Shown piece by piece: positions 1 through 3,000 of a stretch of DNA of 64,000 nt; position 1 is the stretch's first letter; each line of letters opens with the position of its first letter. Location: NCBI RefSeq assembly GCF_003018255.1, contig NZ_CP027440.1. The stretch is one strand, 5' to 3'. Origin of the DNA: Escherichia coli. GTDB taxonomy: Bacteria > Pseudomonadota > Gammaproteobacteria > Enterobacterales > Enterobacteriaceae. The position numbers are program-made.

Positions 1-3000
1 CTGAATTCTGGGGAACTGGTCTTAAATATGATGCCAATAACCTGTATCTGGCAGCAGTGTATTCAGAAACCCAGAATATGACGACCTTTGGTGATCAAGG
101 TGTTGCGGATAAAGCTCAGAATATCGAAGCCGTTGTTCAGTATCAGTTTGATTTTGGTCTGCGTCCGTCTCTGGCCTACCTTCAGTCCCGAGGACAGGAT
201 GTTATGGTTGGTGGTGTGAACCATGGCGATCAGGATCTGGTTAAATATATTGATGTCGGTGCGACTTATTACTTTAACAAGAATATGTCCACCCATGTTG
301 ATTATAAAATTAACCTGATTGAGGAAAGTGAATTTACCCGGAAAGCCGGTGTTGCGACAGATAATATCGTTGCTGTGGGTATGACTTATCAGTTCTGATT
401 ATTGCTGATAAGTATAATAAATACGGGCCGTCAGCCCTTACTGGCGGCCTGTATCAATGAAAACACAGTTTTCATTGGTCACTGCGATCAGCAATTGCCA
501 TCTGGCATGTGTTGATTTAACTTTCTGTTATTACCTTTATTGGTTTTATTTTAAATTGGACTTTTATTGTTCGGGGCGCGGTTGCGCCCCTTTTTTATGG
601 GCGGATATATGCAGGATATTCACGAAGAAAGCCTGAACGAGTCGGTTAAGTCAGAGCAGTCACCGCGGGTGGTGCTCTGGGAAATCGACCTGACGGTGCA
701 GGGCGGTGAGCGGTATTTTTTCTGCAATGAGCTGAATGAAAAAGGGGAGCCGGTGACCTGGCAGGGGCGTGAATATCAGGCGTACCCGATTGAGGGGAGT
801 GGCTTTGAGATGAACGGAAAGGGCAGCAGTGCCCGCCCGTCGCTGACAGTGTCCAATCTTTTCGGCCTTGTCACCGGGATGGCGGAGGATTTGCAGAGCC
901 TGGTGGGGGCCACGGTGGTCCGTCGCCGGGTGTATGCGCGTTTTCTGGATGCGGTGAACTTTGTGGCAGGCAATCCTGAGGCAGACCCGGAGCAGGAGCT
1001 GACGGACCGCTGGGTGGTGGAGCAGATGTCAGCGCTGACGGCCATGACGGCCTCGTTTGTGCTGGCGACACCGACGGAGACGGACGGTGCGCTGTTTCCC
1101 GGTCGCATCATGCTGGCGAACACCTGTATGTGGGATTACCGGGGCGATGAATGCGGGTATAACGGTCCGGCAGTGGCGGATGAGTTCGACAACCCCACCA
1201 CGGATATCCGGAAGGACAGATGCAGTAAATGCATGCGCGGGTGTGAGATGCGCGGCATGGTGGCTAATTTCGGCGGTTTCCTTTCCATTAATAAACTTTC
1301 GCAGTAAATCCCGTTTTATGACACAGACTGAATCAGCGATTCTGGCGCATGCCCGGCGGTGTGCGCCAGCGGAGTCGTGCGGCTTCGTGATAAGCACCCC
1401 GGAGGGGGAGCGGTACCAGCCCTGCGTGAATATCTCCGCAGAGCCGGAGGCGTATTTTCGTATTGCACCGGAAGACTGGCTGCAGGCACAGATGCAGGGG
1501 GAGATTGTGGCGCTGGTCCACAGTCATCCCGGTGGTCTGCCCTGGCTGAGCGAGGCGGACCGGCGGCTGCAGATAAAGAGTGCCCTGCCCTGGTGGCTGG
1601 TCTGTCGGGGTGAAATTCACCGGTTCCGCTGTGTGCCGCACCTGACCGGACGGCGCTTTGAACACGGTGTGACGGACTGTTACACCCTGTTCCGGGATGC
1701 ATACCATCTGGCGGGGATAACGCTGCCGGATTTTCATCGCGAGGATGACTGGTGGCGCAACGGCCAGAACCTGTACCTGGACAATATGGAGGCCACTGGC
1801 TTTTGCCGGGTGTCCCTGTCCTCTGCACAGGCAGGCGATATCCTGCTGTGCTGCTTTGGCGCATCGGTGCCGAATCATGCCGCCATTTACTGTGGCAACG
1901 GTGAGCTGCTTCACCATATACCTGAACAACTGAGTAAACGGGAGAGGTATTCTGAAAAATGGCAACGACGAACGCATTCTGTCTGGCGTCACCGCCACTG
2001 GTCCGCATCTGCCTTCACGGGGATTTACAACGATTTGGTCGCCGCATCAGTCTGTATGTGAACACGGCAGCGGAGGCCATCCGTGCCCTGTCGCAGCAGG
2101 TGCCGGGATTCCGCTGTCAGATGAACGAAGGCTGGTACCAGATACGTATTGCCGGTGAGGATACCGCGCCGGACCAGATATCGCCCCGACTGCATGAGCC
2201 ACTGAACCCGGGGGATGTCATTCATCTGGTTCCCCGGGCAGAAGGTGCCAAAAGTGGCGGAGTGTTTCAGGCCGTGCTTGGCGTTGCGCTGGTTGCGGCA
2301 GCTATCTGGATGCCGGGTATCGGTATTGCAGCCAGCAACATCATGTTTTCCATGGGCTCTGCAATGGCACTGGGTGGTGTGGCCCAGATGCTGGCCCCGA
2401 AGGCAAAGACGCCGGAGTACAAAAGCACGGATAACGGCAGACAGAACACGTATTTTTCGTCACTGGACAACATGATTGCTCAGGGGAATCCGGTGCCGGT
2501 GCCTTACGGTGAAATGCTGGTTGGTTCACGACGGATATCCCAGGACATCAGCACCCGTGATGAGGGCGGTGACGGGAAAGTGGTGGTTATCGGGCGGGGA
2601 TGAAAAAAAATCCCGCAGTGTTCGGCGCCTGCGGGAAGAGATACGAAGATTAACTTTAAGGAATTTTTCATTATTCTGGCAGATGAACTGTAACGCAGCG
2701 TGATTATGAGCACTACAGTCAGTGTGCGGAAATGTGAATAAACTCAGAATTTTTATTCACCGGAAGAGGATTGCCGGATATCGGTGGCAGAGGACAGAAG
2801 GCATCATGCCGGGTTCAGGGGATAAAAAAATCCCGCAGAACTCCGTGCTGCGGGAAGAGAACGATGTTGACTAACCTGTTGGCGTTTTATTTTTATTGAC
2901 CCGCAGAAACTGTAACCTGCCGGAATGCACTCTGCCACGGAGAATGACGGAAAATGTGAAGAAAATCAGAGTTTTTATTTATCCCGTGCATTCGTCTCTG

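What the first reader, a model, noticed from the sequence alone, without database searches (positions are those of the whole stretch)
1959..2061. About 100-nt out-of-frame overlap between tail genes K and I
The K reading frame runs to 2061 while the I homologue appears to begin at the ATG at 1959, giving a long overlap. Either the I start is further downstream at a non-ATG codon, or expression of the two is coupled.
Basis: inference. Interest (0 to 1): 0.2.

Follow-up and report, generated by a model that had tools for sequence, protein, structure and literature searches.

The report
Lambda-type K/I tail-gene overlap, real
Two neighbouring phage tail-assembly genes in an E. coli prophage share 103 bases in different reading frames, exactly as in phage lambda's own long-standing annotation, so the feature is real but ordinary.

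Summary
K (1318-2061, stop TGA 2059-2061) and I (ATG 1959 to 2603) overlap by 103 nt, with I in the -1 frame relative to K. This is the same overlap annotated in phage lambda (K 14276..14875, I 14773..15444) and in RefSeq for a 99.8% identical E. coli prophage. It is exact in all 157 lambda-type relatives tabulated.

The rival idea of a later, non-ATG start fails. ATG 1959 is the only ATG/GTG/TTG start in the I frame before GTG 2058. It is the only candidate with a Shine-Dalgarno sequence (GGGAGAGGU, 10-11 nt upstream). Residues 14-34, encoded inside the overlap, form the first two strands of I's ubiquitin-like domain and are conserved in phages of many other hosts.

The overlap pairs the structured end of K with a variable I leader (1959-1997). 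It then pairs I's conserved strands with a poorly conserved K tail (1998-2058). Substitution patterns switch frame accordingly.

No frameshift signal or notable RNA structure is present. Independent initiation of I inside K is the likeliest mechanism, but it is inferred, not shown. The only modest new value is resolving conflicting database start calls (ATG1, ATG14, ATC17, GTG34).

The parts
609..1307 (+). Tail tip gene L (232 aa), upstream neighbour of K
   Evidence: Pfam Phage_tail_L, E 1e-92. RefSeq annotation of a 99.8% identical prophage.
1318..2061 (+). Tail assembly gene K (247 aa): JAB metallopeptidase domain plus NlpC/P60 cysteine peptidase domain, then a roughly 22-residue C-terminal tail
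   Evidence: Pfam Prok-JAB 3-105 and NLPC_P60 111-224. Invariant residues E19, H68, S69, H70, S78, D81, C121, H187, H200 and R224 in 12 diverse homologues. AlphaFold2 mean pLDDT 87, with the last confident strand at residues 219-225. The ATG lies 10 nt after the L stop and has no Shine-Dalgarno sequence.
1940..1948 (+). Shine-Dalgarno sequence GGGAGAGGU for I, embedded in K codons R-E-R (CGG GAG AGG)
   Evidence: Best anti-SD duplex is -7.7 kcal/mol, 10-11 nt before ATG 1959. Values for CTG 1998, ATC 2007 and GTG 2058 are -1.5 to -2.2. (G)GAGAGG is kept at the same spacing in 154 of 157 lambda-type loci.
1953..1955 (+). In-frame TGA that closes the I frame two codons upstream of its ATG
   Evidence: Codon listing.
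1959..2603 (+). Tail assembly gene I (214 aa): 13-residue leader, ubiquitin-like beta-grasp domain (about residues 14-100, ending ..GAKSGG), hydrophobic linker, and C-terminal plug domain
   Evidence: Pfam Lambda_tail_I 16-97. Matches lambda gpI over residues 1-213 in PDB 8iyk, E 7e-81. AlphaFold2 places strands at 15-19 and 29-32 and a helix at 37-47, with pLDDT 80-91 for residues 11-99. Foldseek best matches are CysO, MoaD, ThiS, ubiquitin and SUMO.
1959..2061 (+). The 103-nt K/I dual-coding overlap (I in the -1 frame relative to K)
   Evidence: The same overlap is annotated in lambda J02459 and in RefSeq NZ_CP027373.
1959..1997 (+). Overlap segment A: K residues 214-226 (last helix and strand of the NlpC/P60 fold, including invariant R224) over the I leader residues 1-13 (unstructured, variable)
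   Evidence: Diversity is highest at K codon position 3 (pi 0.233, against 0.077 and 0.044 at positions 1 and 2). K-synonymous changes occur at 7 of 26 possible sites, I-synonymous at 4 of 34. I residues 1-10 have pLDDT about 51.
1998..2058 (+). Overlap segment B: I residues 14-34 (beta1, turn, beta2 of the ubiquitin-like domain; near-invariant L19, G21, F26, G27) over the K C-terminal tail residues 227-247
   Evidence: I-synonymous changes occur at 11 of 42 possible sites, K-synonymous at 6 of 43. The K tail has pLDDT 63 falling to 33. It is absent from most distant K homologues, which stop 2-10 residues after the conserved ..RH motif.
2058..2061 (+). GTGA: GTG (I codon 34) overlapping the K stop TGA. 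Some records use it as a short-form I start; that start is rejected here.
   Evidence: PV340550 and LR595863 annotate I from this GTG, and 181-aa database entries begin 'MNTAAEA'. It has no Shine-Dalgarno sequence and would delete beta1-beta2.

Best explanation
This is the K/I gene junction of a lambda-type prophage tail operon, with a genuine 103-nt dual-coding overlap. K is a JAB plus NlpC/P60 peptidase needed for tail tip assembly, and it is translated through to TGA 2059-2061. I is a ubiquitin-like domain joined to a tail-tip plug domain. Ribosomes most likely start I on their own at ATG 1959, guided by the Shine-Dalgarno sequence GGGAGAGGU written into K codons 1940-1948. The overlap is long because, relative to more distant phages, K carries a roughly 20-residue C-terminal extension and I carries a roughly 9-residue N-terminal extension. 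As a result, the folded end of K lies over a dispensable-looking I leader, and the first two strands of I's domain lie over a weakly constrained K tail. What is shown: the coordinates, the homology, the conservation, the domain boundaries and the substitution patterns. What is inferred: the actual initiation site used in cells and its independence from K translation.
For: The overlap is identical in lambda's own record, in RefSeq for a 99.8% identical prophage, and in the 82 close loci first examined; codon 1 is ATG in all 157 lambda-type loci tabulated. ATG 1959 is the only ATG/GTG/TTG in the I frame between the upstream stop and codon 34. It alone has a Shine-Dalgarno sequence. Of the 14 distant phages examined, 12 likewise carry a GGAG-like or AAGGA-like Shine-Dalgarno sequence 5-8 nt before their I start. 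Homology of I to phages of Pseudomonas, Vibrio, Klebsiella, Rhizobium, Ralstonia, Burkholderia and Synechococcus begins at query residues 5-24, mostly 14-17, and their Met lies 1-5 residues before beta1. Pfam Lambda_tail_I covers residues 16-97. AlphaFold2 places beta1 at 15-19 and beta2 at 29-32, and the fold matches MoaD, CysO and ubiquitin. Substitution periodicity follows the K frame up to 1997, is mixed over 1998-2058, and follows the I frame afterwards. Changes that are synonymous in one frame occur at about half the rate seen in the single-coding flanks: 7/26 against 83/153 (p 0.011) and 11/42 against 32/61 (p 0.009). A second clade, the ES18/Oslo type, keeps a 58-nt overlap in 79 of 80 loci.
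Against: There is no direct experimental evidence for the N-terminus. Cryo-EM resolves only gpI residues 134/135-223 (PMC10721106, PMC12617516), and virion mass spectrometry found one peptide. The 10-11 nt spacer between the Shine-Dalgarno sequence and the ATG is longer than optimal. Both the ATG and the Shine-Dalgarno sequence sit in K codons (K-W and R-E-R) that K itself constrains, so their conservation is not independent proof. The I leader evolves almost freely, which would also fit its not being translated. In lambda-type alleles an ATG at codon 14 offers a second possible start, but this window has CTG there. The substitution counts are small and are not independent events, because two main allele groups dominate the sample.
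Confidence: 0.82

Rival explanations
1. I really starts downstream at a non-ATG codon, so the long overlap is an annotation artefact. Candidates are GTG 2058, which overlaps the K stop as GTGA, or ATC 2007 or CTG 1998.
For: Public records do use these starts. PhiR12_2 and Lambda_4B5 annotate I from the GTG with a 4-nt overlap. Database clusters of 181 aa ('MNTAAEA', 22 members), 198-210 aa ('MCLHGDL', up to 3,823 members) and 200 aa ('MARICLYG', lambda-type alleles) exist. GTGA start/stop overlaps are a common coupling arrangement (established knowledge). The ES18 clade starts I at a GTG aligned with codon 14.
Against: No Shine-Dalgarno sequence precedes any of these codons (-1.5 to -2.2 kcal/mol). 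A GTG 2058 start removes beta1 and beta2 and the near-invariant L19, G21, F26 and G27. A start at ATC 2007 would be shorter than any natural homologue's N-terminus. Codon 14 is CTG or CAG in all 79 window-type alleles. Diversity within 1998-2058 favours I-synonymous changes, so that stretch is read in the I frame.
Confidence: 0.07
2. Expression of I depends mechanistically on K translation. This could be termination-reinitiation or ribosome-mediated unfolding of the I start region, or a programmed -1 frameshift that produces a K-I fusion protein.
For: I lies in the -1 frame of K. A GGGG run at 2019-2022 could allow low-level slippage. PHROG 28576 is a K-I fusion profile, and fused ORFs P0077 and P0078 exist. 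Iyer et al. 2006 list rare fusions of protein I to JAB or J. K itself looks coupled to L, with no Shine-Dalgarno sequence and a start 10 nt after the L stop.
Against: There is no X XXY YYZ heptamer anywhere in K. The region around the start is not unusually structured (z +0.85, with 161 of 200 shuffles folding at least as well), so there is nothing obvious for K ribosomes to unmask. The K stop lies 100 nt downstream of the I start, too far for ordinary reinitiation (established knowledge). The fused ORFs are single-genome cases whose frame change lies just 5' of ATG1, and they lack the JAB domain. A slip at GGGG would yield a fusion lacking beta1. From my own knowledge, K and I are separate complementation groups in lambda genetics, which argues against strong polarity.
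Confidence: 0.06
3. Only one frame of the overlap matters. On this view the K tail (residues 227-247) and the I leader (residues 1-13) are translated but functionless read-through or read-in, and the overlap length is a historical accident held in place by the other frame.
For: The K tail is missing in most distant K homologues and has low model confidence. It tolerates S/H, A/T/V, Y/C, V/A and M/T changes. The I leader varies at K wobble positions at nearly the K-synonymous rate. A random frame stays open for 23 codons about one time in three (arithmetic).
Against: Changes synonymous in one frame but not the other are about half as frequent as in the single-coding flanks (p about 0.01 each), which suggests some constraint on the second frame. 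A K tail of similar length and with recognisable similarity persists in the ES18/Oslo clade, where I is only 28% identical.
Confidence: 0.35

Closest known systems
Phage lambda genes K and I (GenBank J02459: K 14276..14875, I 14773..15444)
   Same: The gene order is L-K-I-J. The overlap has the same length (103 nt), the same -1 frame relation, the same ATG and TGA positions, and a Shine-Dalgarno sequence of the same type at the same spacing. K is about 87-93% identical and I about 60% identical.
   Different: Codon 14 of I is CTG here but ATG in lambda. I is 214 aa rather than 223 aa, because the hydrophobic linker is shorter. K here is an uninterrupted 247 aa, whereas the lambda reference has a 1-nt frame break after codon 45 and is annotated as 199 aa. 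A 910-bp repeat array separates I from J here, against 60 bp in lambda.
[quoted passage not shown]
   Same: [quoted passage not shown] I has an N-terminal ThiS/MoaD-like ubiquitin fold ending in Gly-Gly, a Gly-rich or hydrophobic linker, and a C-terminal domain. The two genes are adjacent.
   Different: In most members the K/I junction overlaps by only 4-50 nt or not at all. Only the lambda and ES18 clades have the long overlap. The proposed cleavage of I by the JAB domain of K is still a prediction.
ES18 / Salmonella phage Oslo K-I junction
   Same: The overlap is long and conserved, in the same frame relation, and K carries a comparable C-terminal extension.
   Different: The overlap is 58 nt. 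I starts at a GTG directly on beta1, with a GGAG sequence 8 nt upstream. The codons upstream are closed by a stop in most loci.
Lambda G/GT programmed -1 frameshift in the same tail operon
   Same: Two tail-assembly reading frames overlap in the -1 relation in a lambdoid tail operon (established knowledge).
   Different: There is no slippery heptamer here, and no conserved fusion product. The downstream frame has its own start codon and Shine-Dalgarno sequence.

Membership tests
Lambda-type K/I tail assembly gene pair | K carries a JAB (JAMM) metallopeptidase domain with the E...HxH...S...D residues | tested here: met
   Pfam Prok-JAB E 2.6e-16. E19, H68, H70, S78 and D81 are invariant in 12 diverse homologues.
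Lambda-type K/I tail assembly gene pair | K carries an NlpC/P60 papain-like domain with a Cys/His catalytic set | tested here: met
   Pfam NLPC_P60 E 8.3e-14, residues 111-224. C121, H187 and H200 are invariant.
Lambda-type K/I tail assembly gene pair | I has an N-terminal ubiquitin-like beta-grasp domain ending in a conserved Gly | tested here: met
   Pfam Lambda_tail_I 16-97. AlphaFold2 N-terminal domain pLDDT 80-91. Foldseek matches CysO (E 2e-4), MoaD (target TM-score 0.74), ThiS and ubiquitin. G96 is invariant, and the GAKSGG motif is present.
Lambda-type K/I tail assembly gene pair | I has a C-terminal domain homologous to the gpI plug seen in the lambda tail tip | tested here: met
   Residues 126-212 match PDB 9e7m gpI chains, E 2e-36. 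The full length matches 8iyk_I, E 7e-81.
Lambda-type K/I tail assembly gene pair | Gene order L-K-I-J within a siphovirus tail operon | tested here: met
   The flanking V, G, T, H and M genes are present upstream in the 99.8% identical prophage.
Lambda-type K/I tail assembly gene pair | K processes I proteolytically, with JAB cleaving after the ubiquitin-like domain | not testable with these tools
   This is a prediction of Iyer et al. 2006. Cryo-EM sees only the C-terminal part of gpI, which is compatible with cleavage but does not prove it.
Programmed -1 ribosomal frameshift site | Slippery heptamer X XXY YYZ in the upstream frame within the overlap | tested here: not met
   No such heptamer occurs anywhere in K.
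Programmed -1 ribosomal frameshift site | A stimulatory downstream RNA structure or a conserved fusion product | tested here: not met
   The fold z-score around the site is +0.85. Fused K-I ORFs are rare single-genome cases.
Start/stop-overlap translational coupling (ATGA/GTGA type) | The downstream gene's functional start codon overlaps the upstream stop | tested here: not met
   GTGA exists at 2058-2061, but starting there deletes conserved beta1-beta2 and there is no Shine-Dalgarno sequence. T1-like and Burkholderia relatives do use a true 4-nt overlap.
Dual-coding (overprinted) overlapping genes | Both reading frames encode protein that is under selection across the overlap | tested here: inconclusive
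   The frame-specific substitution pattern switches inside the overlap, and single-frame-synonymous changes are halved relative to the flanks (p about 0.01). However, the counts are small, the alleles are related, and the K tail and I leader are individually weakly conserved.

The most novel reading that the evidence does not exclude
The roughly 20-residue K tail, found only in the lambda and ES18 clades, may be a functional peptide created by overprinting onto the first two strands of I. It might, for example, help dock K's peptidase on I's ubiquitin-like domain. In addition, placing I's Shine-Dalgarno sequence and ATG 100 nt inside K could let K-translating ribosomes throttle I initiation and so set the K:I ratio.
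Probability: 0.12. Interest if true: 0.35.

Novelty: already known. Interest (0 to 1): 0.1.

Why it matters
The finding matters little beyond annotation hygiene. The overlap has been in lambda's reference annotation for decades, and this prophage simply inherits it. The practical value is that public records disagree on where gene I starts: ATG1, ATG14, ATC17 and GTG34 are all in use, some across thousands of entries. The comparative evidence here favours the long form. The short forms delete part of the ubiquitin-like domain, which is central to the still-untested idea that K's JAB peptidase processes I during tail tip assembly.

Tried and rejected
- **Frameshift site:** I searched all of K for a -1 slippery heptamer and found none. 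The only homopolymer runs in or beside the overlap are GGGG at 2019 and AAAAA at 1955.
- **RNA structure:** folding 1915-2005 gave z +0.85, so nothing stands out.
- **Structural evidence for the gpI N-terminus:** cryo-EM papers and PDB entries resolve only residues 134/135-223. The F-pyocin homologue shows only residues 127-200. The virion mass spectrometry table lists one peptide with no position.
- **Lambda ribosome-profiling paper** (Liu et al. 2013, known to me from memory): not held in the library.
- **CRISPRi essentiality paper on lambda:** says nothing specific about K or I because of polarity.
- **NCBIfam:** no model for I.
- **I-J spacer:** Rfam gave no significant family, and literature on AgvB and Pas sRNAs gave no match to this position.
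- **Self-correction:** I first placed the Oslo I start at ATG 1513. Translation showed a stop three codons later, so GTG 1528 is the start.

Full report
**What is there.** The first 3.6 kb of the window is the tail-tip part of a lambdoid prophage. It is 99.8% identical to a prophage in the chromosome of E. coli strain 05-3629. That prophage has the order V, G, T, H, M, an ompC-like porin moron, then L, K, I and J. In the window, L is 609-1307. K runs from ATG 1318 to TGA 2059-2061 (247 aa). I runs from ATG 1959 to TGA 2601-2603 (214 aa). K has a Prok-JAB domain (residues 3-105) and an NlpC/P60 domain (111-224). I has the Lambda_tail_I domain (residues 16-97).

**It is lambda's own overlap.** The lambda reference record J02459 annotates K at 14276..14875 and I at 14773..15444, which is 103 nt. 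RefSeq annotates the near-identical prophage the same way. The 82 close relatives first collected all have ATG, TGA and exactly 103 nt. Across 157 lambda-type loci, codon 1 is always ATG. Other records, however, start I at the GTG that overlaps the K stop (GTGA), giving a 4-nt overlap: PhiR12_2 and Lambda_4B5. Protein databases hold four N-terminal versions: MATTNAF/MAATHTL (long form), MARICLYG (codon 14), MCLHGDL (codon 17, ATC) and MNTAAEA (codon 34, GTG).

**Where I starts.**
- In the I frame a TGA sits at 1953-1955. ATG 1959 is the only ATG/GTG/TTG before GTG 2058.
- ATG 1959 is preceded by GGGAGAGGU (1940-1948), with an anti-SD duplex of -7.7 kcal/mol and a 10-11 nt spacer. CTG 1998, ATC 2007 and GTG 2058 have nothing better than -2.2.
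- The (G)GAGAGG sequence is kept at the same spacing in nearly all lambda-type loci. It uses the rare Arg codons CGG and AGG of K (the rarity of these codons is established knowledge).
- A tblastn search of I against 50,697 phage records found 1,597 relatives. The distant ones come from phages of Pseudomonas, Vibrio, Klebsiella, Rhizobium, Ralstonia, Burkholderia and Synechococcus, and from T1-like phages. Their alignments start at query residues 5-24, mostly 14-17.
- In 14 such phages that I fetched, the Met lies 1-5 residues before the first hydrophobic strand. In 12 of them a GGAG-like or AAGGA-like Shine-Dalgarno sequence lies 5-8 nt upstream.
- L19, G21, F26 and G27 are nearly invariant.
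- AlphaFold2 places beta1 at residues 15-19 and beta2 at 29-32, with pLDDT 80-91 for residues 11-99. The domain matches CysO, MoaD, ThiS, ubiquitin and SUMO. This agrees with the ubiquitin-like assignment of Iyer et al. 2006 (PMC1779556).
- A start at GTG 2058 would delete both strands. A start at ATC 2007 would be shorter than any natural homologue.
- Codon 14 is ATG in the 78 lambda-type alleles but CTG or CAG in the 79 window-type alleles, so it cannot serve here.

I therefore place the start at ATG 1959, with about 85% confidence.

**Anatomy of the overlap.** The last invariant K residue is R224 (1987-1989). The last confident element of the K model is strand 219-225. After it the pLDDT falls to 63 and then 33. 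Most distant K proteins stop 2-10 residues after the conserved ..RH motif. Only the lambda and ES18/Oslo clades carry a roughly 20-residue extension. Lambda-type I in turn carries about 9 extra N-terminal residues.

The overlap therefore has two parts:
- **1959-1997:** the folded end of K lies over the unstructured, variable I leader.
- **1998-2058:** I's beta1-beta2 lies over the weakly conserved K tail.

**Substitution patterns.** Patterns in 118-119 distinct haplotypes agree with this split.
- Upstream of the overlap, diversity peaks at K codon position 3 (pi 0.263).
- It still does so in 1959-1997 (0.233).
- It is flat in 1998-2058 (0.075, 0.124, 0.114).
- It peaks at I position 3 downstream (0.324).
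- K-synonymous changes are favoured in the first part (7/26 against 4/34). I-synonymous changes are favoured in the second (11/42 against 6/43).
- Both rates are about half those in the single-coding flanks (83/153 and 32/61; Fisher p 0.011 and 0.009). Changes that alter both proteins are rarest.

These counts are small, and the sequences fall into two main allele groups, so I treat this as supportive only.

**How common is the overlap.** Distant phages have short K/I overlaps: 4 nt in T1-like JMPW1 and Burkholderia E175, then 8, 11, 16, 16, 20 and 50 nt in others. Some have none, sometimes with inserted genes between K and I. The ES18/Oslo clade keeps a 58-nt overlap in 79 of 80 loci, with I starting at a GTG on beta1. 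The RefSeq record for Oslo starts I 87 nt further down and truncates the domain.

**Mechanism.** I found no X XXY YYZ slippery site in K and no unusual RNA structure around the start (z +0.85). K-I fused ORFs are rare single-genome variants whose frame change lies just before ATG1. The simplest reading is independent, Shine-Dalgarno-led initiation of I inside the K coding sequence. K itself looks coupled to L, because it has no Shine-Dalgarno sequence and starts 10 nt after the L stop. From my own knowledge, K and I are separate complementation groups in lambda, which also argues against strong polarity. None of this is experimental proof for this prophage. Cryo-EM resolves only the C-terminal plug of gpI, and virion mass spectrometry gave one peptide.

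**Verdict.** The feature is real, conserved and already known. It is lambda's K/I overlap in a close relative. The "later start" alternative is rejected. "Coupled expression" is neither needed nor excluded. The interest is low. The useful by-products are a reasoned choice among four conflicting database start sites and a description of which half of the overlap serves which protein.

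Noticed in passing
window 2604-3513: The I-J spacer is 910 bp, against 60 bp in lambda. It consists of four tandem repeat units of about 220-230 bp. 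Three units carry a minus-strand intrinsic terminator: the reverse complement of AAAAAAATCCCGCAG..CTGCGGGAAG at 2604, 2824 and 3277. A fourth variant terminator lies near 3036-3090. Each unit also has an AT-rich inverted repeat. No Rfam family matches. Stx phages such as VT1-Sakai carry a single, unannotated unit. This could be an array of minus-strand prophage small-RNA genes.
   Followed up: partly
L002 (lambda J02459) 1134-1280, i.e. lambda 14133-14279: In the lambda reference, the first 45 codons of K lie in a different frame from the rest, because of a 1-nt deletion relative to relatives. The classical 199-aa K therefore lacks the invariant JAMM Glu (E19). By contrast, 133 of 162 relatives and Lambda_4B5 have an uninterrupted 247-aa K. 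This is either a sequencing error or a laboratory-strain mutation.
   Followed up: partly
window 1959-2060 and database proteins P0001, P0007, P0008, P0080, P0089: Public annotation uses four different starts for gene I: ATG1, ATG14, ATC17 and GTG34. The ATC17 and ATG14 forms together cover thousands of entries.
   Followed up: yes
L088 (Salmonella phage Oslo NC_018279) 1498-1620: The annotated I start at 1615 is a CTG that truncates the ubiquitin-like domain. The conserved start of this clade is GTG 1528, which gives a 58-nt overlap with K. An ATG at 1513 is followed by a stop three codons later.
   Followed up: yes
window 1-398 and 571-608: An ompC-like porin gene (a moron) sits between tail genes M and L. 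A GC-rich hairpin followed by a T run (571-600) lies directly upstream of the L start codon.
   Followed up: no
window 1305-1320: The K ATG lies 10 nt after the L stop with no detectable Shine-Dalgarno sequence, so K translation probably depends on ribosomes finishing L.
   Followed up: no
PHROG 28576; proteins P0077, P0078: A PHROG profile of 399 positions joins K to I. Two complete-genome ORFs fuse the NlpC/P60 part of K to full-length I through a frame change just 5' of the I ATG. They appear to be rare mutational fusions.
   Followed up: partly
window 7399-7539 and 7684-8952: Downstream of J there is a Hok/Gef-type small toxin ORF, followed by a tail fibre gene with long collagen-like G-X-Y repeats.
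   Followed up: no
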